Shown here piece by piece: positions 251-43,859 of a stretch of 64,000 bases of DNA (position 1 is its first letter; each line of letters starts with the position of its first letter). Both the position numbers and the translations under genes were made by a program. Under the pieces are notes generated by a model. It saw only the letters and a list, made by a program, of their open reading frames with translations. It was not told the DNA's origin and searched no databases. The stretch is from UHGV virus genome UHGV-0312576. The stretch is one strand, 5' to 3'. The stretch is from a virus.

Positions 251-1372
251 TTAGCAATTCTTAGCCATGTTCTTGAATACTTCCCAACGGGCCTGTACAT
301 TTTCTTTAGCAGCAGATCCGGAACCACAGAGATTCCTGTACTCTTCATTCTGTTCATAGCTATTGAAAAATTCCTTTGAGAGTACCATGTATTTATCTTT
401 TCCACCCTTGTACTTAATCACCTTGCACATACCAGCAACAAACATCGGGATAGAGGTCTTTTTTAGATTTGGAATCTTTTCTGTAATTCTCCTATTAATA
501 GAGTCAGCAGCGTTGATAATTAAGTCAATTACTTCCTGTTTGTTTTCTTGCTCATCAAACCATGTAATGAACGCCTGAATATCCTCATTCCTAAATCCAA
601 ATTCATGCTCTTTACTGTAACCAGATACTAACATCATGATTTCGAGAATGAGATTACGGTCCTCACTGTTCTTAAAAATGCCGGCGCTGAAAATTCTTTC
701 CCATAGATTTGGCATTTTCTTTTCTTTCATGACTGGCTTTCCGTCTTTCATAATGACTTCACCAGCACGATTTTTCTTTTCAACTTCATAAGTATATCCA
801 TCAGCGTTTAATATGCTTAAAATCTGACCATACAATTCATCACTAATATTCACAGAGTTTTTCTGTGCGTTAGTGAGAGGTCTACCAGAATTCTTGCGTC
901 TAAATAGTTCAGTGATTTCTCTATTAGTTGCCTCATGGTAGAAGTCGATGGGCAATTCATAATAACTAAGTTTGCTCTTTATTTCTTCGTCCAGTTCTTC
1001 AAACTTCTTTCCCCATAATGATTCTGATGGATAGAATGTTTTTCCTTCAATAGTAAAGGGGACATCATCTAACCTTTTTGATAAACGATACTCACCATTT
1101 ACAAAATCGGCAAAATTGGTTATACGCTGAACGCCATCAATGACAGCATTATTTAATTTAATAACATCGCCAGTTGTTTCATCAACCATACTAACGACGA
1201 TTGTAACAGGGTCGATTAGGTATTCACGCAACACACTATCAATCAATTCTGTTTTCTGTAGTGCATTCCACTGTCCAGAAGGACGCTGAAGCGGATGCTT
1301 AAAATTATACTTACCGTTCTTAACTTCTTTAGCCAAAGTAGGAAGACCACGACGTTTTGATTCTGACCTCAT
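251..1372 (-). CDS. DUF262 / ParB-like nuclease superfamily protein (GmrSD N-terminal-domain-like), without an HNH/DUF1524 domain
   Basis: 373-aa ORF. N-terminal 'FKHPLQRPSGQW..LIDSVL..IDPVTI..VIDGVQRITNF' matches the DUF262 pattern (IPxFQRxxxW ... DGQQR). No nuclease module at the C-terminus. Confidence 0.6.
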   Translation of the reverse strand: MRSESKRRGLPTLAKEVKNGKYNFKHPLQRPSGQWNALQKTELIDSVLREYLIDPVTIVVSMVDETTGDVIKLNNAVIDGVQRITNFADFVNGEYRLSKRLDDVPFTIEGKTFYPSESLWGKKFEELDEEIKSKLSYYELPIDFYHEATNREITELFRRKNSGRPLTNAQKNSVNISDELYGQILSILNADGYTYEVEKKNRAGEVIMKDGKPVMKEKKMPNLWERIFSAGIFKNSEDRNLILEIMMLVSGYSKEHEFGFRNEDIQAFITWFDEQENKQEVIDLIINAADSINRRITEKIPNLKKTSIPMFVAGMCKVIKYKGGKDKYMVLSKEFFNSYEQNEEYRNLCGSGSAAKENVQARWEVFKNMAKNC

Positions 1373-18776: not shown

Positions 18777-18849
18777 ACGCCCCGCAGGATTCGAACCTGC
18801 ATAAACTCGATTAAAAGTCTAGTGCCATACCATTAGGCGACAGACCCAT
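18777..18849 (-). tRNA. tRNA-like element with Lys (UUU) anticodon and intact D and T arms, but a non-pairing acceptor stem (pseudo-tRNA or att-associated)
   Basis: Minus strand reads GGGTCTG TC GCC..GGC A CTAGA CTTTTAA TCGAG TTTAT GCAGG TTCGAAT CCTGC GGGGCGT G. U8, A14, GG and the TΨC loop are present. Acceptor stem is at best 3 Watson-Crick pairs plus 3 G-U wobbles, with 2 clear mismatches, and the anticodon stem has one mismatch. Confidence 0.4.
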
Positions 18850-19722: not shown

Positions 19723-20757
19723 TTAGACAAACGCTTCATCGGACTCATCATCAGCATCATTTTTGATAATGTAGTGATTCTTGGTGGTACTAACATCTTC
19801 ATGGCCCAAAAGCTTTTGAGCAACTTCCGCTGATTTATGTTCATATACAACGAGATTGGTAGCTCTGCTTTCACGGAATAAATGCGGATGGCAACGCCTA
19901 TTTACAATTTCTGTAAACAAACCACTACACCAGTCATTGAAAATACCTTCTCCGACCTGACGCGTATTACCATCCTTTGTTTTAACAACAAACATATAGG
20001 GACAATCATCTTCACCACGGATTTCAAGCCATTTTTTTAACCAGCTCATAGCGTCTTCACCAAATTTAAGCTTTCTAGGCTTACCAACAACAGATTTTCC
20101 TTTGCAACGAATAGTATGAGTTAGATACTGTTTTGAGATGGCTGAAGTCTCCTTGCCATTTTCATCAATAATTTTGATTGCTTTTTCTTTCGCAGGATAA
20201 TCAACAACCTCTTTTAAAAGTTGTCTTGCTTCGGCACGTCGGCAACCTGTACTATAAGAGAATACTAAATAAGCCAGTTTTTGCCACTCTTCACGATGCT
20301 CTAATTCCTGGCATAAATTTAAGTACTCATCAGGAGTAAGAGGTACTTTTTCATGAACGTATCCAGTTTGAACGACTTTTAATCCAACAGTGAAATTTCG
20401 AAACGTAGGGTACTCTTCTTCATACATCATCATTACATAATTACAGAACGTGCTTACACATGATTTTTTAAACCGAATTGCAGAGTCGGATAATCCACGA
20501 TTTGTAAGCCAGTTCAAATATTTCTGAAATTCTTTCTTCTTGATTTGGGTAAAATCCTTATCTTTTAAGTTTTCTTTTACCCAAACAAAAAATACACGTA
20601 ATCCGGAGCGGTAAGCTGGCCGAGTTTTCGCAGAAAGGTCGGCTTGATTATCAAGATAGTCTTGCACCATATCTCTGTTAAATTTGTTGACTGTTTTCCA
20701 TAACTCATCTGTGATTTCTTCTGATCTATCTGCTATTTTTCCATCCAATAATCCCAC
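19723..20757 (-). CDS. int: tyrosine integrase (phage integrase family)
   Basis: Catalytic residues in 'GCRRAE', 'HLFRESRAT', 'LLGHEDVSTTKNHY' give the R..HxxR..Y arrangement. N-terminal SAM-like domain is present. Confidence 0.85.
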   Translation of the reverse strand: MGLLDGKIADRSEEITDELWKTVNKFNRDMVQDYLDNQADLSAKTRPAYRSGLRVFFVWVKENLKDKDFTQIKKKEFQKYLNWLTNRGLSDSAIRFKKSCVSTFCNYVMMMYEEEYPTFRNFTVGLKVVQTGYVHEKVPLTPDEYLNLCQELEHREEWQKLAYLVFSYSTGCRRAEARQLLKEVVDYPAKEKAIKIIDENGKETSAISKQYLTHTIRCKGKSVVGKPRKLKFGEDAMSWLKKWLEIRGEDDCPYMFVVKTKDGNTRQVGEGIFNDWCSGLFTEIVNRRCHPHLFRESRATNLVVYEHKSAEVAQKLLGHEDVSTTKNHYIIKNDADDESDEAFV

Positions 20758-25551: not shown

Positions 25552-25569
25552 TTTAACTGCATAGTAAAG

Positions 25570-25644
25570 TACAGGAAATGGAATTCGAACCCATAGATCA
25601 CAGAGATTTTGAAACTCCGGCATATGCCATTCTGCTATTCCTGT
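25570..25644 (-). tRNA. tRNA with an atypical 9-nt anticodon loop; anticodon ambiguous (CAA or UCA)
   Basis: Perfect 7-bp acceptor stem ACAGGAA / TTCCTGT. T-arm ATGGG-TTCGAAT-TCCAT. Anticodon stem CGGAG / CTCTG encloses TTTCAAAAT. Confidence 0.55.
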
Positions 25645-25648
25645 ATAA

Positions 25649-25732
25649 TACCTCTGGTGGGAGTCGAACCCACATGTGTCATTGACCCCCAGATCCTTAG
25701 TCTGGTGCATAATCCATTTCTGCTACAGAGGC
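25649..25732 (-). tRNA. type II tRNA-Leu-like (AAG anticodon, 15-nt variable arm)
   Basis: Acceptor GCCTCTG / CAGAGGT. Anticodon stem CCAGA / TCTGG with loop CTAAGGA, G37. T-arm GTGGG-TTCGACT-CCCAC. Confidence 0.55.
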
Positions 25733-25736
25733 TTAG

Positions 25737-25818
25737 TGTGCCTAAAGGGATTAGAACCCTTATTCCATATGGAAGCGGGGCTTAAACCCGCTGCGTATAC
25801 CATTTTCGCCATAGGCAC
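25737..25818 (-). tRNA. tRNA-Leu (UAA), type II
   Basis: Acceptor GTGCCTA / TAGGCAC. Anticodon stem GCGGG / CCCGC with loop TTTAAGC. Variable arm TTCCAT/ATGGAA is a perfect hairpin. T-arm AAGGG-TTCTAAT-CCCTT. Confidence 0.7.
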
Positions 25819-26196: not shown

Positions 26197-28812
26197 CTAT
26201 TTTTCACAATTTTTGCTAAAACACTTTAGCAAATTTGATGAATTTACATCATATAAAACTTTAATTAATATGGACTTATTTTTATTTAAAGTTGAAGATA
26301 TATTATTTTTGTTTCGTTTCGTTCCAGGTAAGATTTTAAAACTTCTATCAATTATCCATGAAAACAGTCCTAAATAATTACGAGATACATTTATCTGCTT
26401 TATGTCATTTACAAGATTATCAAAATCTTTTCTAAGAAGAAAATGCTCGTCTACATCAGTTGATGTGTTGTAGTTGAATAATTGAATTGAGTATTTAGCA
26501 ATCCATTCTTCTACCTTGCGGCAAGTACGGATGTTATTTTTAAGCTCAAACTTGTGAAAGAAATAACTCATTGGAAGGGTGGTAGTAGTATTGTGAAACT
26601 CAGACAAATCGAGAGAAGATAGATAATTCATTGGACAACATAATTCCTTGTTAATACGAGATTTGTTAAAATCTTTCCGTATTATCCCCCAAAATTCAGG
26701 ATAACCGTTTTCATTAATGTTCATGTCACGTCTAATTCTTTGTATTTCGTTCGTTAAATCGATATCAAAACGTCTCTTCGCATTATCTATTGCAACCTGA
26801 GCGAGCACAGATAGTATACATACATAGTTAATATATTTTTGATCAGAGAAATTACAAGCGTAAGTCTGAGCTATTTGCGCGAGGTTACTAGACTCTCCAA
26901 TATCAAGTTGAGAATTCGCCAATCCAGAATCAATTTTTGCGTAATCGTCCATTGTTCTTCTATAGCAATTCTTGTCTTTTGGAATATTATTAACGATAGT
27001 AGGGTAATTAAGATAACACAAACGGGCGTGCTCAACAATATCTGTTTGATTTGTAGTGTAGCCGCTATCAGAATCCTGATCCGCACCATTGTTTCTGTCT
27101 TGAAAATCTGTTCCGATCATATTAACGGCAATACACTGTCTGCCAAGAGAAAAGTATTTATTCAAATTTTTGTGGTACACATTGTGCATATATGTAAGAT
27201 TATTCTTGCTATTAAACGGACTTCGAAAGAAAGCAAGATATTCTCCACTATTGAACCGTTCTGTATAACATTGAATTGTCCCATTCTCTACGAAAAACGT
27301 ATCATCCTCATCTACCGATTCTGATTTTCCAGTTGCAGCATACAACAACATTGCATATGGAGAACCGACAATTACTAGATTTTCTGCGTTTTGAAGAAGC
27401 TTTCCGCTTTTCATGTTTAAAACATAGACCTTTATTATATCTATCTTTCTTCTTCTAAAATAAGAACTACGCAAAAAATCACGATTCTGCTCACATAGCG
27501 CTATTAATACCTCGTAATCATTTGAGAAATTCTTGTTTTTTTCGAGATATTCAAGAAATGCGTCATCATCTTGCTTCAGCTTATTGATATATTCAACACT
27601 TTCTTTAACAACGTTCTCCATAATGTCTTTATCAAGAGAGTTCACCATCTGATAACTCATTCGTTGTACATCCCCGAGCTTGCTTTCATGAGCGGTTTTA
27701 ACAATCCCAAACATACAGTTGTTTTCATAAACCTTTTCGCACCAGTAATCGTAAGATATGTTAAATTTTAACCACTTCATTGAATTATCAGTTGTAATTA
27801 CTTCAATGTCTTTTACATAATGTATATTTCCAAACATATCCTCTACAGTAGCAGATAAATAATCATCCCCAAAGTAATCTTTGAAGAACTTCTGAATATT
27901 CGTATTAAACGCTGCCATTTTGCAAAAATGATGACGTAATAAAATATATCCATTCCCCCATTCAGGGAAAATGCTACTATCAATCAATGCCTGGCCGTCA
28001 AAAAGAGTGTTCTTCAGGGTGTAGTCCTCAAGATACTTTGCAACGCAATGACGATTCTCATCAGTTTCAACACTAATCACATTCGTCTTGAAAGTTCTGT
28101 CTACGTCTTTTAATATTAAAATGTTCTTGGGATTAATTTTAATTTTACCGACAATAGCACTAGATATGAGAGGAGTATATGCACTGATTTCAACAATGGG
28201 AGCATTATTCTTTGGTATCTTTATTCCCATGTATAAAAATTTAATTGCTTTTTTATATAAACGATCACAGATGAACATACAAGAACCCTTTTTGGCCTTG
28301 CCAGTACTACGATATAACATTTTGTAATTTATATGCTCTGTTTTAACAATATCTCCATTCTTCTTACGAGATATGTATTCAACAGTAACACCATCATTGT
28401 AAAATATTCTCCTGATATCATCTTTACTATATTTTTGATATTTTTCTTTGTTCTTTATCGCTTCTTGATGCAGCATTGCTAGTCTACGACGTTTATTTCG
28501 TTTTTTCTTAATAACGGTTGGATATCCGTAACTTTTAGCAATCTTATATTCTAGTCTGGCTTTCATACTGATTTTTTTTAAATGTTCCATTTCATCGTCA
28601 AATGACCTAGAACCAAAATTGAATTCCAAACAAATAATATCTCTAGTAGATTCCTCATTCCATACTTTTAGCCCATTCTCCAACAGATAATCACTAAATA
28701 GACTATTTGTGAACAGTGCTTCCTTGTACTCGTAATGGTCACGTACTCCATTGTTATATTCAAAGAGAGTGCTGGCCTCGATGTTTTTAATTTTAATTCC
28801 AAAGTCGCTCAT
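26197..28812 (-). CDS. large hypothetical protein (871 aa), possibly replication-associated
   Basis: Long uninterrupted ORF between the tRNA cluster and dCMP deaminase. I found no convincing polymerase, primase or helicase motif. Confidence 0.6.
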   Translation of the reverse strand: MSDFGIKIKNIEASTLFEYNNGVRDHYEYKEALFTNSLFSDYLLENGLKVWNEESTRDIICLEFNFGSRSFDDEMEHLKKISMKARLEYKIAKSYGYPTVIKKKRNKRRRLAMLHQEAIKNKEKYQKYSKDDIRRIFYNDGVTVEYISRKKNGDIVKTEHINYKMLYRSTGKAKKGSCMFICDRLYKKAIKFLYMGIKIPKNNAPIVEISAYTPLISSAIVGKIKINPKNILILKDVDRTFKTNVISVETDENRHCVAKYLEDYTLKNTLFDGQALIDSSIFPEWGNGYILLRHHFCKMAAFNTNIQKFFKDYFGDDYLSATVEDMFGNIHYVKDIEVITTDNSMKWLKFNISYDYWCEKVYENNCMFGIVKTAHESKLGDVQRMSYQMVNSLDKDIMENVVKESVEYINKLKQDDDAFLEYLEKNKNFSNDYEVLIALCEQNRDFLRSSYFRRRKIDIIKVYVLNMKSGKLLQNAENLVIVGSPYAMLLYAATGKSESVDEDDTFFVENGTIQCYTERFNSGEYLAFFRSPFNSKNNLTYMHNVYHKNLNKYFSLGRQCIAVNMIGTDFQDRNNGADQDSDSGYTTNQTDIVEHARLCYLNYPTIVNNIPKDKNCYRRTMDDYAKIDSGLANSQLDIGESSNLAQIAQTYACNFSDQKYINYVCILSVLAQVAIDNAKRRFDIDLTNEIQRIRRDMNINENGYPEFWGIIRKDFNKSRINKELCCPMNYLSSLDLSEFHNTTTTLPMSYFFHKFELKNNIRTCRKVEEWIAKYSIQLFNYNTSTDVDEHFLLRKDFDNLVNDIKQINVSRNYLGLFSWIIDRSFKILPGTKRNKNNISSTLNKNKSILIKVLYDVNSSNLLKCFSKNCEK

Positions 28813-39554: not shown

Positions 39555-39755
39555 TTAATCAAAATATCCAAGGGTTTCTTGAAAAATAGATTCCAATTTC
39601 TCTTTAAGAACATGTTTGTCTGTCTTGTAGGCATCGATTTCAACAGTTACCTTAAGGCCAGGGAATTCAATTTCATTCTCTGGTTTATTATTACGTAAAG
39701 TCATTCCTTCCTCATCAAATACAAATTTTTGTGGTATTACTTGTGTTTTGGTCAT
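39555..39755 (-). CDS. small ORF (66 aa) tightly linked upstream of the RSH gene; candidate partner (antitoxin or regulator)
   Basis: Its stop codon lies 17 nt before the RSH start, with the RSH RBS between them. No recognisable motif. Confidence 0.45.
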   Translation of the reverse strand: MTKTQVIPQKFVFDEEGMTLRNNKPENEIEFPGLKVTVEIDAYKTDKHVLKEKLESIFQETLGYFD

Positions 39756-39886
39756 GCTTATAGCTTCCTTTCTTTTGATTTAAGTGATATATAGTTATTC
39801 TCCATCCAAAACTTCACTTTCCAGATAATTCATAAATTACGTTTTACAAATACCACACATACTAATCACAAAGGAAGGTGATGAAA

Positions 39887-40666
39887 ATGGCGGTAGCTCA
39901 GAAAAGTGCTATATCTGTGGGTGTGTTATATATTCCGTCCGATTTATACAAGACAACCAGGGATATTAGTATTTCGTTTAATCAACTTTGCAAGGACTCT
40001 CATGAACGGATTAAATATAAGAAATATTGCCCATCTTGTAATAAGGAGATAAAGTCTAACGATGATATCATTAAGGGGTATGAGTACGAGAAAGGGCGTT
40101 ATGTGGTATTCACTCAGGATGAATTGGATAAGCTGAAGACTGAAAAAGATAGGACAGTCCATATAGATCATACGGCCAAGATGTCTGAGATTGATAGCAT
40201 CTACTTTGACAAGAACTACTATATGATTCCGGAGCCAGGTGCAGAGAAATCATATGAACTGTTTCGCCAGGCATTGCTGAGCCTGAAACTGGTAGCGGTC
40301 GCCAAGACTGTGTTAGGTACTAAGCAGGAACTCTTGGTATTGTATCCTACTAAGGAATGTATTATTGCCAAGATATTATTTTACAAAGAAGAAATTCAGG
40401 AGTTACCAAAGCCAATACCAAAAGTAGAGATAAAGAAGGAAGAATTGGATTTGGCAAAGCTGATGGTTAAATCTCTGGAGAAGAAATTTGATATATCAGC
40501 ATACCATGATGAATATCAGCAACGGCTGCGAGAGGCCATAACAGCTAAGATTAATGGTAAAGAGATTGTGGCTACAGATAATGTAACCCATGAAATGATA
40601 GATCCTATGGAGGCTATGAAGCAGGTAATAGAAATGCTGCAAAATGGTAAAGTTGGTACAGCATAA
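39887..40666 (+). CDS. ku: Ku protein (bacterial NHEJ DNA-end-binding protein)
   Basis: 'AISVGVLYIPSDLYKTT', 'KYKKYCPSCN' and 'YHDEYQ' line up with bacterial Ku (AISFGLVNVPVKVYSAT...RYKRVCEACG...YHDTYQ). AAGGAAGG RBS. Start trimmed from the track's GTG. Confidence 0.85.
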   Translation: MAVAQKSAISVGVLYIPSDLYKTTRDISISFNQLCKDSHERIKYKKYCPSCNKEIKSNDDIIKGYEYEKGRYVVFTQDELDKLKTEKDRTVHIDHTAKMSEIDSIYFDKNYYMIPEPGAEKSYELFRQALLSLKLVAVAKTVLGTKQELLVLYPTKECIIAKILFYKEEIQELPKPIPKVEIKKEELDLAKLMVKSLEKKFDISAYHDEYQQRLREAITAKINGKEIVATDNVTHEMIDPMEAMKQVIEMLQNGKVGTA

Positions 40667-41601
40667 TGGATATATTTGATAAAAAGGGTATCAAACCAAT
40701 GCTGATTGCAGAGATGGTAGATCCGTTTGACTCAGATGATTATATCTATGAACTGAAGCTGGATGGGATGCGCTGCATAGCGTATTTTAATGATAGTAGC
40801 GTGGATTTTCGTAATAAGAGGGATTTTAAATTACTTCCAAGATTCCAGGAATTAAAGGATATCTACAAAAATATTAAGCATAAATGCATCCTTGATGGAG
40901 AGCTGGCCGTTATAGTGAATGGTGTTCCTGTTTTTAGTATTTTGCAACGTAGGTCTATACTGAATGATCCATTTAAGATAGAGTTGGCGTCTAAAATGAA
41001 TCCTGCTATATTTGTTGCCTTTGATGTCATATATTTTGATGGGGATGTAGTTGTTGATAAACCGCTTATAGAACGTAAGAAATTGTTGGAAGAATGTTTT
41101 GCTGAAGAGAGTAGTAAGATTGCATATAGCAGATATATTGAAGAACATGGCATAAAACTTTTTGAACTGGCAAAGCAGCAACATTTAGAGGGTATTGTTG
41201 CCAAAAAGAAGGATAGTTTATACTGGTTTGGTAAAGAAACACGGGACTGGGTTAAAATCAAGGTTATGACCGATGAGGATTTTGTGCTGTGTGGATATAT
41301 TCTAAAACCAAATAATATGACCAGCTTTGTTATAGGCCAGTATGATGGCAGTGAATTAGTTTATAAGGGGCATATTACTCTTGGTGCAAGTCTGAGGAAG
41401 CTTAATGAATACAAATACAGTATAATCAACCATTCGCCGTTTGAACATACACCTCCAGGAAATGAGAAGGCGGTATGGTTGGCTCCGGAGTTGGTCTGCA
41501 TTGTAGAGTATATGCCAGATGAGTCAATAGAGCGTCGGCAAGCGGTTCTGAAGGGAATAAGAGATGATAAGCTGCCGATGGAGTGCCAGGTAGGGGAGTA
41601 G
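40666..41601 (+). CDS. ATP-dependent DNA ligase, LigD ligase-domain-like
   Basis: 'YELKLDGMRCIAYF' is the KxDG adenylation motif I. Its start overlaps the Ku stop (TAATG), indicating translational coupling. Confidence 0.8.
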   Translation: MDIFDKKGIKPMLIAEMVDPFDSDDYIYELKLDGMRCIAYFNDSSVDFRNKRDFKLLPRFQELKDIYKNIKHKCILDGELAVIVNGVPVFSILQRRSILNDPFKIELASKMNPAIFVAFDVIYFDGDVVVDKPLIERKKLLEECFAEESSKIAYSRYIEEHGIKLFELAKQQHLEGIVAKKKDSLYWFGKETRDWVKIKVMTDEDFVLCGYILKPNNMTSFVIGQYDGSELVYKGHITLGASLRKLNEYKYSIINHSPFEHTPPGNEKAVWLAPELVCIVEYMPDESIERRQAVLKGIRDDKLPMECQVGE

Positions 41602-41636
41602 GGATGCTCCCCTTTTTGACATACAAAAGCCTGATG

Positions 41637-42347
41637 TTATTTGCATTTTCTTGCTACATAAGTAACTACCTTTGTATACAGATGACTAATTATTGAATCC
41701 CGTGGAATATCATATTCTTGTTTGCTAACAGAATACTTTAATATATTCCATCCACTAAAAATATCATTTAAATATTCCTGTATTTTTCCAGTTGAAAGGT
41801 TTACTTCAAATTGTGCGTCTAAGTTTTCTTGTGTATCTAAATTTATTTCTTTAATATCAGAATTTATTACTAAACAGACAATACCATCTTTTCGCAATCC
41901 ATTTTTGATTTCAAACAATTTTTTAATAAATGATTGTTCAGTGTCAATATGTTCTAATGCAGATATTGCCATAATAAAATCAAAGGCATTAACACTAATA
42001 TCATATTCTTCAATAGATTTTACAATTCCAATAATGTGTGAACTCACATTATGTTCTTTAGCGTTTTGACGGAGTTTTTCAATTGCAACTTCCAATAAAT
42101 CAACACATTCTACAGTACAATTTATGTTTTTATATTTTTCCGCAATGTAAATACAGTTACGACCAATACCACACCCCAAGTCCAATACTTGAAGCTTATC
42201 GTATCCGTTAAATAAAGGGCATATATCCTGTACTGTTTTTATGGGTTTACGTAACCAAGTGTTTGATTGATATAGTTTTTCATTAGTATATATCGCAACA
42301 TGTGACATTTTCTCATTCGCTCGAATATGTGCTAATCTTTCATCCAA
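41637..42347 (-). CDS. SAM-dependent methyltransferase, TehB-like
   Basis: 'VLDLGCGIGRNCIYIA' motif I plus a downstream 'FDFIMAISALEHI', resembling TehB. Confidence 0.6.
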   Translation of the reverse strand: MDERLAHIRANEKMSHVAIYTNEKLYQSNTWLRKPIKTVQDICPLFNGYDKLQVLDLGCGIGRNCIYIAEKYKNINCTVECVDLLEVAIEKLRQNAKEHNVSSHIIGIVKSIEEYDISVNAFDFIMAISALEHIDTEQSFIKKLFEIKNGLRKDGIVCLVINSDIKEINLDTQENLDAQFEVNLSTGKIQEYLNDIFSGWNILKYSVSKQEYDIPRDSIISHLYTKVVTYVARKCK

Positions 42348-42359
42348 TTTTATTCACCT

Positions 42360-43400
42360 CAATAAATATATCTGTTTGATACCCAAACTTTGACTAATTA
42401 TAGCATGTATTTGTGTACATGAAAACGATAAGTTCGGTGAGGAGATTCGGAAGTGAGGAGATTTCATTGAAATACAAGGGATTTTTGAGATTTTGTGGTG
42501 TGATTTAGGATGAGTGAGAGGTGTTATTTCCTTATATAAAGGTCGAGTTCGGGAAAGTGCTTGATTTATAGGGAGTTTTAGGGGGGAGGAGAGTGATTTT
42601 GCAGTATTTTGGGGCGAAAATAAATTATCTGAAAATTTAGTTTTCGTTGTAAATGCGTTGTTTTACCGAACTCGATACCGAACGTGCTTTGAGTAAATAT
42701 GTAAATTGTGTGGACGTTTGGTACAATTATAAGGGGTGTTTTGGGTGCCAGAAAGTGAAAATTTTAAGGTTATGTGTGGGTGGAACAGATAGGGGCATTT
42801 GGTGAAAATGGGATTAACTGGGAAATGTAAACATACCCCCACCTATGGTATAGACAGCAAAAACCCTTGATAAATAAGGGCAAAATCAAAAATGCGTACT
42901 TTTGTTATTAGTACGCATTGTAAATGATTTCCAACTATGTGATATAGTATTGATTACTATAAATATTGCGTTGTAAAAACAACAAAATATATCGAACTGT
43001 ATACTTGTTTAAACAAGGCTGAAATTGTCTGACAATAACATGTTTAAACAAGTTCGACACAACGCTGTTTCGACAACATAACTGGCATGGTCAATACTTC
43101 AAAATCTATCACTATCAACCATGCCAGTCGTTCCTGGATATGTTACACCTACATCAATACACACCCAATAAATCAATCTACAATCCAATACCCCACACAA
43201 CGTACCACAATCAAATCCTAGCCATTTAACATCCACACTCTAACGACTATCCACCCACATCACAAACCAGCCTTAAAACGTCTCACAATGTGTCACATCG
43301 TTCCTGGCTCCATTACAAAATCCTATCCCTACATTATAATGTCCACAATCTAATCACATATGCCCATATAGCGCACCACAACGGCCCACAATCCATTTTA
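42360..43400. promoter_or_regulatory. ~1 kb non-coding control region: strand-asymmetric arms, palindromes and CACAAT repeats (candidate ori/pac/operator region)
   Basis: No ORF of 60 aa or more. Plus strand is G+T-rich and C-poor up to ~42900, then A+C-rich and G-poor from ~43100. Contains the 14-bp palindrome CTTGTTTAAACAAG plus a near copy, the hairpin ACTGGCATGGT..ACCATGCCAGT, the hairpin ATGCGTACT..AGTACGCAT, and GTGAGGAGATT direct repeats. Confidence 0.5.
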
Positions 43401-43405
43401 CGCTA

Positions 43406-43627
43406 TCAGTCAATATCAATATATAGGTTACATCCAATAGCCTTACATAATGTGTATATAATATTGATTCCAGGATTAGGAGTCCTACCAGCTAATAAAT
43501 TACTAACTGTCTGACGTGACCATCCTGTAATATTGCAAATATCTTTTTGGCGCAATCCTTTGTCAATCATTATGTGTTTAATTTGTTTCATAATATCATT
43601 AACATTGCCACTGTATTCTAGTTTCAT
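43406..43627 (-). CDS. HTH XRE-family (cI-like) transcriptional regulator
   Basis: 'IKHIMIDKGLRQKDICNITGWSRQTVSNLLAGRT' is an HTH_3 motif. Start trimmed to MKLEYS, with a GGAGGA RBS. Transcribed divergently from the plus-strand early genes. Confidence 0.6.
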   Translation of the reverse strand: MKLEYSGNVNDIMKQIKHIMIDKGLRQKDICNITGWSRQTVSNLLAGRTPNPGINIIYTLCKAIGCNLYIDID

Positions 43628-43859
43628 TCTATCCTCCAAATGGGTAGTATTATAGTATAACATATCCACACATTGTATTGCAATGACAAAACATTGTTGA
43701 TTTTTACAAAAATATTATAGCATAATTTGTGCACTATTTTCGCAAGAAAAGTATTGTAATAACAATACAAGTATGCTATATTATAAGTGTCCCAAGGGAC
43801 AGGGCGCAAGCCCTACAACATAATAGCAACAATCGGCACCTTGATAATTGAATAGACTT

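What the first reader, a model, noticed from the sequence alone, without database searches (positions are those of the whole stretch)
39887..41601. Translationally coupled Ku plus ATP-dependent ligase (minimal NHEJ) pair on a phage
The Ku homologue has a near-textbook N-terminus and core (AISVGVLYIPSDLYKTT, YHDEYQ). A KxDG ligase (LigD ligase-domain-like) follows, with the TAATG stop and start overlapping. Phage-borne Ku is known in a few mycobacteriophages that rely on host LigD. A phage carrying both halves of NHEJ is uncommon. It may serve genome circularisation or repair in hosts that lack NHEJ, or protection of ends from host nucleases. The ligase has no obvious polymerase or phosphoesterase domain.
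Basis: partly seen in the sequence, partly recalled or inferred. Interest (0 to 1): 0.65.

Follow-up and report, generated by a model that had tools for sequence, protein, structure and literature searches.

The report
Ku–ligase repair cassette on a prophage
A large prophage of the human gut bacterium Enterocloster bolteae carries an intact two-gene DNA end-joining kit (Ku plus its own ligase) of the type found on related bacterial chromosomes; no catalogued phage was found with both genes, but it looks like optional cargo rather than a new mechanism.

Summary
Window 39887-40666 encodes a bacterial-type Ku (TIGR02772, 233 bits against a cutoff of 150). Window 40666-41601 encodes a 311-aa ATP-dependent ligase with all six nucleotidyltransferase motifs (K31 in KLDG) and no polymerase or phosphoesterase domain. 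The Ku stop and the ligase start overlap (TAATG).

The setting is a phage. The window is part of an SPbeta-like temperate phage, with terminase, portal, recombinases and antirepressors. Its Ku and ligase proteins are identical to Enterocloster bolteae 90B8 proteins.

The pair is not a phage invention. All 80 closest bacterial Ku genes, mostly Lachnospiraceae, have the same ligase-only partner directly downstream. In 81 of 87 distinct cassettes the genes share the same 1-nt overlap, and a sigma-G-type -10 box usually sits upstream. Homology to a chromosomal copy (95%/85%) is confined to 39818-41601.

Intact phage copies are under strong purifying selection (dN/dS 0.02-0.09). Four related phage contigs carry decayed copies. 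No GenBank phage record matched both genes. At least three unrelated gut prophage lineages carry such cassettes.

Best reading: a functional, horizontally shared NHEJ cassette carried as accessory prophage cargo. A role in the phage's own infection cycle is not excluded.

The parts
39818..39886 (+). 5' edge of the transferable module, with its leader. It holds a sigma-G-type -10-like box CATACTA (39858-39864) and the Shine-Dalgarno AGGTGAT (39876-39882). No convincing -35 was found.
   Evidence: Homology to L001 and to the chromosomal copy L012 starts exactly at 39818. CATA[ACT]TA lies at -42..-20 in 44 of 97 distinct cassette upstream regions, against 1.6 in shuffles. The window scores 9 of 11 against GHATR-N17/18-CATNHTA, with only 2 of 5 matches in the -35 part. 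No sigma-70-like site was found here.
39887..40666 (+). Ku gene (259 aa): a bacterial-type DNA end-binding protein with a short C-terminus and no Lys-rich tail.
   Evidence: PF02735 8.7e-39. TIGR02772 233 bits, above the cutoff of 150. phrog_4873. PDB 9vnq 3.2e-40. dN/dS is 0.015-0.04 among intact phage and chromosomal copies.
40664..40668 (+). TAATG junction: the Ku stop TAA and the ligase ATG share one base, giving translational coupling.
   Evidence: Read directly from the sequence. The same 1-nt overlap occurs in 81 of 87 distinct cassettes.
40666..41601 (+). ATP-dependent DNA ligase (311 aa) made of NTase and OB domains only (LigD LIG-domain type). Motifs: I K31LDG, III LDGE 76-79, IIIa FVAFD 116-120, IV EGIVAKK 175-181, V WVKIK 195-199, VI RQAVLKGIRDDK 291-302.
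   Evidence: PF01068 6.4e-30 and PF04679 2.4e-10. TIGR02779 is the best hit at 194 bits, below its cutoff of 227.75. Full-length alignment to 1VS0, 7e-21. Motif positions. dN/dS is 0.05-0.095.
40756..40767 (+). Motif I KLDG; K31 is the predicted adenylation lysine.
   Evidence: It aligns with the KWDG motif of the M. tuberculosis LigD ligase domain.
41593..41617 (+). Terminator-like hairpin GGGGAG-N8-CTCCCC followed by TTTTT. It overlaps the ligase stop codon and marks the 3' edge of the module.
   Evidence: RNA fold of 41586-41630 gives -18.7 kcal/mol. Homology to L001 ends at 41617 and to L012 at 41601. The simple terminator scan did not flag it.

Best explanation
This is a functional, self-contained two-gene NHEJ cassette of the Ku plus ligase-only kind that is standard in Lachnospiraceae and Clostridia. 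It was exchanged horizontally as a unit of about 1.8 kb (window 39818-41617). An SPbeta-like temperate phage of Enterocloster bolteae carries it as accessory cargo.

Inferred mechanism, from family knowledge: a Ku homodimer ring threads onto double-strand ends and protects and bridges them. It recruits the co-translated ligase, which self-adenylates on K31 and seals compatible or blunt ends. With no POL or PE domain, there is no end remodelling.

The cassette sits at the divergent junction next to the immunity region (HTH genes at 43.4-44.7 kb), among other optional cargo: a PDC-S33 RelA/SpoT candidate defence gene and a SAM methyltransferase. It brings its own leader, with a forespore sigma-G-type -10 box, and its own terminator.

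I therefore think it most likely acts in the lysogen. There it would repair breaks in the single non-replicating chromosome (prophage included) of spores or stationary cells, as B. subtilis YkoV/YkoU do. I think it less likely to be a required step of phage infection.

Shown here: the gene identities, the intact motifs, the coupling, the phage residence, the host-type architecture, the purifying selection, and the loss in relatives.

Inferred: the biochemical activity, the time of expression, and who benefits.
For: Identity.

Phage residence:
- Terminase (35% identical to SPbeta YonF), portal, recombinases and antirepressors are present.
- Synteny holds on both sides in L001, L004, L008-L010, L092-L097 and L138.
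- The exact proteins equal E. bolteae 90B8 ENZ38104.1 and ENZ38103.1. They occur on contigs up to about 1 Mb and in 697 index blocks.

Host-type cassette:
- 80 of 80 closest genomic Ku genes have the roughly 310-aa ligase directly downstream.
- 81 of 87 distinct cassettes share the 1-nt stop/start overlap.
- The flanks are not conserved and no POL-domain neighbour was found.
- The 'lig-no-pol' NHEJ class is already recognised in Firmicutes (PMC7719229 supplement).

Module transfer:
- Homology to the chromosomal copy in [Clostridium] clostridioforme AGR2157 (Ku 95%, ligase 85%, flanked by housekeeping-type ORFs that I read as aromatic amino-acid synthesis genes, not family-scanned) is limited to 39818-41601.
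- Phage-borne cassettes are polyphyletic among bacterial ones.

Functional constraint: dN/dS is 0.015-0.04 for Ku and 0.05-0.095 for the ligase, at dS 0.3-2.1.

Accessory status:
- L004 and L008 share a ligase deletion (aa 124-253) and have different Ku lesions.
- L009 and L010 lack everything from Ku codon 118 to the ligase end.
- The closest GenBank relative by terminase, MT835469.1, gave no Ku hit.

Cargo neighbourhood: PDC-S33 at 7.8e-121. The methyltransferase and the RelA/SpoT gene are each absent from some relatives.

Promoter:
- A sigma-G-like GHATR-N17/18-CATNHTA motif scores at least 10 of 11 in 45 of 90 loci, against 5% of shuffles.
- The -10 box is enriched 27-fold over shuffles.
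- B. subtilis ykoVU belongs to the sigma-G/SpoVT forespore regulon (PMC3656841).

Other prophages carry such cassettes at classic cargo positions: after the lysis genes, or next to integrases.
Against: - There is no expression or biochemical evidence.
- The window family keeps only the -10-like box. The -35 does not match, so forespore expression of this copy is conjecture.
- The cassette is kept at the same locus across phage relatives whose Ku ranges from 79% to 99% identity, under strong purifying selection. That fits a benefit to the phage itself equally well.
- Decayed copies could simply mean that those phages rely on host NHEJ.
- Whether E. bolteae has a chromosomal Ku/ligase of its own was not determined.
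- In the Konateibacter prophage the cassette lies between packaging and tail genes, which is not a typical moron position.
- GC content does not mark the cassette as foreign (0.375 against about 0.35).
Confidence: 0.5

Rival explanations
1. The pair serves the phage's own infection cycle. Ku caps the incoming or cleaved linear genome against host exonucleases. The phage's own ligase then circularises it or reseals restriction or CRISPR cuts. This would make the phage independent of host LigD, an autonomous version of the Corndog/Omega strategy.
For: - Mycobacteriophage Ku is the precedent. 52 GenBank mycobacteriophages carry Ku alone, for example WXIN with no ligase nearby.
- SPbeta-like and rhizobial phages carry LigD-like ligases alone, so each half is independently useful to phages.
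- The cassette is retained at one locus across a diverged phage family under strong purifying selection.
- It lies on the same strand as the rightward early genes.
- L004 and L008 share the ligase deletion but have different Ku lesions. This suggests Ku is not kept once its own ligase is lost, so the two work as a phage-borne pair.
Against: - Four related phage contigs have inactivated cassettes, and one deletion allele is seen in both an isolate genome and a metagenome (L009, L010).
- The cassette is separated from the early operon by an oppositely oriented methyltransferase gene, about 1 kb of ORF-poor DNA and the HTH gene.
- It carries the host cassette's leader and terminator rather than lying inside a phage operon.
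- Genome termini and packaging mode are unknown.
- Bacteria of the host's family commonly have the same cassette.
Confidence: 0.3
2. The cassette is a prophage-encoded defence or superinfection-exclusion function. Error-prone end joining in the lysogen would mis-join cos ends or breaks of incoming phages, or help the lysogen survive phage- or defence-inflicted DNA damage.
For: - It lies beside a candidate defence gene (PDC-S33, 7.8e-121), and the window also has a GmrSD_N/NsnA-like protein.
- A 2026 study reports that mycobacterial NHEJ limits phage SWU1 through imperfect repair at cos sites (PMC12848934).
Against: - Neither Ku nor the ligase matches any PADLOC model.
- The same cassette sits in ordinary chromosomal contexts in most genomes, with no conserved neighbours.
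- Adjacency to one defence candidate is weak evidence, and that gene is absent in L001, L092 and L138.
Confidence: 0.08
3. The pair is host chromosomal DNA that merely abuts a prophage, or is a decaying passenger with no function.
For: Many IMG/VR 'viral' contigs from isolate genomes include host flanks, and several Ku loci lie near contig ends. Decayed copies exist in relatives.
Against: - There are about 39 kb of phage genes to the left. To the right are about 22 kb of small phage-type genes, one of which has homologues in Faecalibacterium and Alicyclobacillus phages.
- Both flanks are syntenic in many viral and metagenomic contigs.
- Both ORFs are intact, with all catalytic motifs and dN/dS well below 1.
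Confidence: 0.03

Closest known systems
Chromosomal 'non-conventional' NHEJ cassette of Firmicutes: Ku plus a LIG-only ligase. Example: Clostridium saccharolyticum WM1 WP_013274226 and WP_013274227, classed 'Yes-NHEJ-lig-no-pol' in PMC7719229.
   Same: The gene order, sizes, ligase-only architecture, 1-nt stop/start overlap and upstream CATACTA box are the same. Identity is 52-70% for Ku and 43-62% for the ligase across Lachnospiraceae, and 95%/85% to the AGR2157 chromosomal copy.
   Different: This copy resides inside an SPbeta-like prophage instead of the chromosome. The usual -35 element is not recognisable.
Bacillus subtilis YkoV (Ku) / YkoU (LigD), forespore sigma-G/SpoVT regulon
   Same: Both are a Ku-then-ligase operon in a spore-forming Firmicute. 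This Ku is closely similar to a solved 227-residue bacterial Ku (PDB 9vnq, 3.2e-40; organism not shown by the tool). A sigma-G-type promoter signature is seen on most cassettes of this family.
   Different: YkoU has a fused polymerase (POL) domain, and the ligase here has none. Expression timing here is untested.
Mycobacteriophage Ku (Corndog cluster O, Omega cluster J; Pitcher et al. 2006, from my own knowledge; Omegavirus WXIN checked here)
   Same: In both, a Ku homologue is encoded by a temperate or large siphophage genome.
   Different: Those phages carry Ku alone and depend on host LigD. Their Ku is only 25-31% identical and has no adjacent ligase. Here a cognate ligase is translationally coupled to Ku.
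Phage LigD-like ligases without Ku: SPbeta YoqV and relatives; Rhizobium and Sinorhizobium phages (PPF1, phiLM21)
   Same: They are ATP-dependent LigD-type ligases on temperate phages. SPbeta-like phages are the structural relatives of this phage.
   Different: Identity is only 26-33%. SPbeta-type hits cover only the NTase part (residues 9-229). No Ku hit was found in those records. The window ligase derives from the bacterial Ku-linked cassette, not from the YoqV lineage.
Phage Mu Gam (Ku-like end-binding protein that promotes NHEJ with E. coli LigA; cited in PMC8136500)
   Same: Both are phage-encoded proteins that bind DNA ends.
   Different: Gam is a distant, smaller homologue that works with the host NAD-dependent ligase. 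It was not compared here by sequence.

Membership tests
Bacterial Ku (TIGR02772 / PF02735) | Matches the family HMMs above curated cutoffs over the full core | tested here: met
   TIGR02772 scores 233.3 bits against a cutoff of 150, covering profile positions 4-257 of 259. PF02735 scores 133.8 bits against 25.
Bacterial Ku (TIGR02772 / PF02735) | Single-domain protein of about 260-300 aa, similar to solved bacterial Ku homodimers | tested here: met
   The protein is 259 aa. It matches 9vnq at 3.2e-40 and 8v53 and 9i91 at 3e-31.
Bacterial Ku (TIGR02772 / PF02735) | Operonic linkage to an ATP-dependent ligase | tested here: met
   The ligase starts within the Ku stop codon. The same linkage holds in 80 of 80 genomic relatives.
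Bacterial Ku (TIGR02772 / PF02735) | Binds DNA ends as a ring and stimulates its ligase | not testable with these tools
   This needs EMSA and end-joining assays.
ATP-dependent DNA ligase, LigD ligase-domain type | NTase and OB domains above Pfam gathering scores | tested here: met
   PF01068 scores 104.8 bits against 26.2. PF04679 scores 41.1 bits against 27.5.
ATP-dependent DNA ligase, LigD ligase-domain type | Motifs I, III, IIIa, IV, V and VI, with the adenylation lysine in KxDG | tested here: met
   The motifs are K31LDG, LDGE 76-79, FVAFD 116-120, EGIVAKK 175-181, WVKIK 195-199 and RQAVLKGIRDDK 291-302. The protein aligns to 1VS0.
ATP-dependent DNA ligase, LigD ligase-domain type | Reaches the curated cutoff of the NHEJ ligase-domain equivalog TIGR02779 | tested here: not met
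   The score is 194.1 bits against a cutoff of 227.75. It is still the best-scoring NCBIfam model, and the alignment is full length. The protein therefore belongs to a divergent Ku-linked LIG-only clade, not a strict equivalog.
Canonical multidomain LigD (LIG + POL + PE) | Polymerase/primase (POL) and phosphoesterase (PE) domains, fused or encoded nearby | tested here: not met
   The 311-aa protein holds only NTase and OB domains. No POL or PE hit was found in 40 window ORFs scanned against Pfam. No conserved POL neighbour was found at the bacterial loci. Only 64 kb of the phage is visible.
Phage-exploited NHEJ of the Corndog/Omega type | Ku encoded by a phage genome | tested here: met
   
Phage-exploited NHEJ of the Corndog/Omega type | Short cos overhangs and a requirement for NHEJ to circularise the genome | not testable with these tools
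   The genome termini are not in the window. This needs virion DNA end mapping and genetics. Decayed copies in relatives argue against a strict requirement.
Prophage accessory cargo (moron) | Variable presence among otherwise syntenic relatives | tested here: met
   The cassette is intact in the window, L001, L092-L097 and L138. It is decayed or deleted in L004 and L008-L010. It is absent from MT835469.1.
Prophage accessory cargo (moron) | Own promoter and terminator, transcribed independently of the flanking phage operons | tested here: inconclusive
   The cassette has a terminator-like hairpin and a conserved -10-like box, and both neighbours are oppositely oriented. No convincing -35 was found, and there are no expression data.

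The most novel reading that the evidence does not exclude
This would be a bacterial virus with a complete, autonomous NHEJ system that it uses for itself. Its own Ku would cap the ends of the large SPbeta-like genome on entry or after restriction or CRISPR cleavage, and its own ligase would reseal them, independently of host LigD. That would extend the Ku-only strategy of mycobacteriophages to a self-sufficient one. The shared ligase deletion followed by independent Ku decay in L004 and L008 hints that the two genes are useful to the phage only as a pair.
Probability: 0.25. Interest if true: 0.65.

Novelty: new member of a known kind. Interest (0 to 1): 0.4.

Why it matters
Phage-borne Ku has been known since the mycobacteriophage work, and phage LigD-like ligases are annotated in SPbeta-like and rhizobial phages. 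I found no report or GenBank phage record with both genes together.

Three points follow from this work:
- Temperate phages of gut Clostridia repeatedly pick up and move the whole host NHEJ cassette. This offers one route for the patchy, horizontally transferred distribution of NHEJ in Firmicutes.
- A common human-gut prophage of E. bolteae may alter its host's double-strand-break repair. That bears on spore or stationary-phase survival, on mutagenic repair, and on the outcome of CRISPR or restriction cleavage.
- The intact and decayed alleles in related phages form a natural series for testing whether phage-borne NHEJ benefits the phage or the lysogen.

The Ku plus 311-aa ligase pair is also a compact candidate NHEJ module for genome engineering in anaerobes.

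Tried and rejected
1. POL or PE partner. I scanned 40 window ORFs against Pfam and clustered the neighbours of the 79 GTDB genome loci L013-L091. Nothing turned up.

2. Full sigma-G promoter in the window. Only the -10 box matches. The conserved upstream TTCATAA lies 23 nt away, which is the wrong spacing. I therefore do not claim forespore expression for this copy.

3. Sigma-70 promoter and terminator scan. It found no promoter-like site in the 131-nt divergent intergenic region and reported no terminator. I found the hairpin at 41593-41617 by direct folding.

4. Repeats flanking the module. The only candidate is a 25-nt, 76% inverted repeat (39809-39833 and 42620-42644). I judged it chance.

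5. MT838252.1, the only non-mycobacterial GenBank 'phage' hit for Ku. It is a high-GC fragment with no ligase next to Ku and no phage genes evident. I dismissed it as a precedent.

6. Naming hosts of the 67-85% Ku clusters through cluster look-ups returned no names.

7. A YonO-like RNA polymerase in the window. Relatives L092 and L138 have a PF05183 protein at the syntenic position. The window's 871-aa ORF has no Pfam hit and no tblastn similarity to them, so I make no claim.

8. Rfam found only tRNAs.

9. Literature searches for a phage with Ku plus a ligase found none in the held library. Absence from that library is not proof of absence.

10. A literature search for the SPbeta packaging mode was uninformative.
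Full report
**1. What is in the sequence**

Two same-strand ORFs fill window 39887-41601.

The first ORF runs from ATG 39887 to TAA 40664-40666 and encodes 259 aa. Gene callers prefer the in-frame ATG at 39881. The AGGTGAT ribosome-binding site at 39876-39882 and the homologues favour 39887. This protein is a bacterial Ku:
- Pfam PF02735 scores 8.7e-39.
- NCBIfam equivalog TIGR02772 scores 233 bits against a cutoff of 150.
- It matches PHROG 4873, 'Ku-like DNA end binding'.
- It matches solved bacterial Ku structures at 3e-40.

The second ORF runs from ATG 40666 to TAG 41601 and encodes 311 aa. It is an ATP-dependent DNA ligase made only of a nucleotidyltransferase domain and an OB domain:
- PF01068 scores 6.4e-30 and PF04679 scores 2.4e-10.
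- Its best NCBIfam model is the NHEJ ligase domain TIGR02779, at 3.1e-57. The score of 194 bits is below that model's curated cutoff of 227.75.
- It aligns end to end with the M. tuberculosis LigD ligase domain 1VS0 at 7e-21.
- All six motifs are present: K31LDG, LDGE, FVAFD, EGIVAKK, WVKIK and RQAVLKGIRDDK.

The Ku stop codon and the ligase start codon share one base (TAATG). A GC-rich hairpin followed by TTTTT overlaps the ligase stop codon (41593-41617, -18.7 kcal/mol).

**2. The setting is a phage**

To the left of the pair, on the minus strand, lie:
- a portal gene (phrog_2739, 4.8e-59) and a terminase,
- head and tail genes and an exonuclease,
- three tRNA-Leu genes,
- a tyrosine recombinase,
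- KilAC and P22_AR_N antirepressors.

To the right lies a CI/Cro-like pair of HTH genes. After it come about 20 kb of small plus-strand genes, one of which has homologues in Faecalibacterium and Alicyclobacillus phages.

The terminase is 35% identical to SPbeta YonF over 92% of its length. It is 76% identical to that of a 176-kb faecal phage record. The element is therefore an SPbeta-like large temperate siphophage.

The exact Ku and ligase proteins are those of Enterocloster bolteae 90B8 (ENZ38104.1 and ENZ38103.1, the latter also WP_002572395.1). They are also seen in a virome TPA record, on hundreds of contigs up to about 1 Mb, and in 697 index blocks. Five metagenomic contigs reproduce the same local gene order with Ku 100% and ligase 99-100% identical. 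This is a common human-gut prophage.

**3. The pair is the ordinary host cassette, not a phage construction**

I scanned one genome per GTDB species. All 80 best Ku relatives (52-95% identity; almost all Lachnospiraceae or other Clostridia) have the same roughly 310-aa ligase immediately downstream.

Among 87 distinct cassettes, 81 have the same 1-nt stop/start overlap (TAATG 47, TGATG 32, TAGTG 2). The flanking genes are not conserved, and no LigD polymerase-domain gene accompanies the cassette. This matches the 'Ku + LIG, no POL' class already catalogued for Firmicutes, for example C. saccharolyticum WM1 (PMC7719229 supplement).

The cassettes also share an upstream signature:
- CATA[ACT]TA lies 20-42 nt before the start codon in 44 of 97 distinct upstream regions, against 1.6 expected from shuffles.
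- The full forespore sigma-G pattern GHATR-N17/18-CATNHTA scores at least 10 of 11 in 45 of 90 loci, against 5% of shuffles.
- The consensus itself is from my own knowledge. B. subtilis ykoV-ykoU is documented as part of the sigma-G/SpoVT forespore regulon (PMC3656841).
- The window keeps CATACTA (39858-39864) and the leader, but has no convincing -35.

**4. Origin and mobility**

The closest copy outside the phage family is in [Clostridium] clostridioforme AGR2157 (Ku 95%, ligase 85%). There it lies downstream of housekeeping-type ORFs that I read as aroA, prephenate dehydrogenase and DAHP synthase (by eye, not family-scanned), which indicates a chromosomal context.

Nucleotide homology between the window and that copy, and between the window and phage L001 whose flanks differ, begins at 39818. 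It ends at 41601 and 41617 respectively. This defines a module of about 1.8 kb with its own leader and terminator.

Ku genes 79-85% identical occur in several settings:
- at the same locus of a more distant SPbeta-like relative (L138),
- after the holin and endolysin genes at the end of another prophage (L134, L135),
- beside genes for a LexA-like protein and a Y-family polymerase (L136, L137).

A profile scan of IMG/VR found 34 Ku loci, 27 of them with the ligase directly downstream. Two examples were checked:
- The Konateibacter massiliensis cassette lies between terminase/portal genes and tail genes of a distantly related prophage (terminase 31% identical).
- The L117 group is flanked by integrase genes, with an endolysin gene about 5 kb upstream.

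These phage-borne cassettes have different nearest bacterial relatives. Capture by phages has therefore happened several times.

By contrast, among 50,697 GenBank phage records Ku matched 53 (52 mycobacteriophages) and the ligase matched 42 (SPbeta-like Bacillus phages, rhizobial phages and a few others). No record matched both. Omegavirus WXIN has Ku with no ligase nearby. The single non-mycobacterial Ku hit is a high-GC fragment with no adjacent ligase. I found no paper in the held library describing a phage with both genes. PMC8136500 reports 11 Ku-encoding phages and does not mention ligases.

**5. Selection and loss**

Among intact copies (window, L001, L092, L012), dN/dS is 0.015-0.04 for Ku and 0.05-0.095 for the ligase. 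Synonymous divergence in these comparisons is 0.3-2.1. Both genes have therefore been kept functional.

Four contigs of the same phage family, syntenic on both sides, carry wrecks:
- L004 has a Ku frameshift near codon 172 and an in-frame ligase deletion of residues 124-253, which removes motifs IV and V.
- L008 has the same ligase deletion and a different Ku lesion, a 98-nt deletion.
- L009 (from an isolate genome) and L010 (from a metagenome) share a deletion from Ku codon 118 to the last codons of the ligase.

The cassette is therefore dispensable for at least some members of the family. The shared ligase deletion with independent Ku lesions suggests that Ku is not maintained once its own ligase is gone. 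This is an inference from only two lineages.

**6. How it most likely works**

By homology, Ku dimers bind and bridge double-strand ends and recruit the ligase. The ligase adenylates K31 and seals ends that need no polymerase or nuclease processing. Translational coupling would keep the two proteins co-expressed.

Who benefits is not shown. I favour accessory cargo acting in the lysogen (confidence about 0.5), for these reasons:
- The cassette travels with its own host-type leader and terminator.
- It points against both of its neighbours.
- It lies beside the immunity region among other optional genes. One is a RelA/SpoT-domain protein matching the PADLOC candidate PDC-S33 at 7.8e-121. Another is a TehB-like SAM methyltransferase. 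Each is missing from some relatives.
- It is lost in some relatives.
- It occupies classic cargo positions in other prophages.

The natural role would be repair of the single, non-replicating chromosome, prophage included, in spores or stationary cells, as in B. subtilis.

The main rival (about 0.3) is use by the phage itself: end protection, circularisation, or resealing of restriction or CRISPR cuts without needing host LigD. Long retention at one locus under purifying selection fits this reading as well. The decayed relatives and the non-operonic placement count against it.

A defence or superinfection-exclusion role (about 0.08) is suggested only by the neighbourhood and by a recent mycobacterial study (PMC12848934).

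The idea that the pair is merely adjacent host DNA is contradicted by the two-sided phage synteny.

**7. Comparison with known systems and novelty**

In mechanism and in family membership this is the known Firmicute Ku + LIG-only cassette. It is not a canonical multidomain LigD, because POL and PE domains are absent, and it falls below the strict TIGR02779 equivalog cutoff.

It resembles the mycobacteriophage Ku strategy only in being phage-borne. It differs in bringing its own ligase. It is not derived from the SPbeta YoqV ligase lineage, to which it is about 30% identical over the NTase domain only.

I rate it a new member of a known kind. The genes themselves were already deposited and correctly named. 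What is new is the recognition that a widespread gut prophage, and several other uncultivated prophages, carry the complete pair.

Interest is moderate. It is a clean, testable case for asking what NHEJ does for a temperate phage or its lysogen, and a plausible vehicle for the patchy spread of NHEJ in Clostridia. It is not a new mechanism.

**8. Limits**

- The prophage ends, genome termini, expression and activity are untested.
- E. bolteae's own NHEJ status could not be determined.
- Counts across loci include related sequences. The promoter consensus matches are signatures, not evidence of function.

Noticed in passing
window 38435-39643 (-), with the 66-aa ORF 39555-39755 (-): A RelA/SpoT-domain protein (PF04607, 6.7e-21) matches the PADLOC phage-defence candidate PDC-S33 at 7.8e-121. 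A small ORF precedes it. The gene is divergent from Ku and is absent from relatives L001, L092 and L138. It may be a toxSAS-type prophage defence gene.
   Followed up: partly
window 34310-35596 (-): A 428-aa transposase (phrog_2199) sits in a local GC peak (0.47 against about 0.34). The insertion is absent at this spot in L093-L095. L096 and L097 have IS110-family genes or fragments there, so this is an insertion-sequence polymorphism inside the prophage.
   Followed up: partly
window 41637-42347 (-): A TehB-like SAM methyltransferase is convergent with the ligase. It is present in the window and in L092-L097 but missing from L001, L004 and L008-L010. It gives only a weak PADLOC 'mad2' hit (3.4e-17). 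It is probably separate cargo and not part of the NHEJ pair.
   Followed up: partly
window 42348-43405: About 1 kb between the methyltransferase gene and the HTH repressor-like gene (43406-43669) has no ORF of 60 aa or more. It gave no Rfam match, and its function is unknown.
   Followed up: partly
window 25569-25818 (-) and 18784-18838 (-): There is a cluster of three tRNA-Leu genes (anticodons CAA, AAG, TAA). A partial tRNA-like Rfam match lies near the tyrosine recombinase gene at 19723-20757 and may be an old attachment-site remnant.
   Followed up: no
window 251-1372 (-): A GmrSD_N-domain protein also matches PADLOC NsnA (5.3e-17). It is another candidate defence gene on the same prophage.
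   Followed up: no
bacterial loci L013-L091, about 20-60 nt upstream of Ku: Most Lachnospiraceae Ku-ligase cassettes carry a sigma-G/sigma-F-like promoter signature (GCATA/GTATA/GAATA, then 17-18 nt, then CATACTA-like). This suggests forespore expression of NHEJ across this family, as in B. subtilis.
   Followed up: partly
L092 807-3083 and L138 1-2253 (syntenic with window 26197-28812): The relatives encode a PF05183 (RdRP-family) protein at this position. From my own knowledge, this is the family of SPbeta's YonO RNA polymerase. The window's 871-aa ORF at the same position has no Pfam hit and no tblastn similarity to them, which suggests replacement or extreme divergence.
   Followed up: partly
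L136 and L137, 3170-5815: In another context an 83%-identical Ku-ligase pair lies divergent from genes for a LexA-like repressor, DUF3837 and a Y-family polymerase. This looks like a small DNA-damage island.
   Followed up: no
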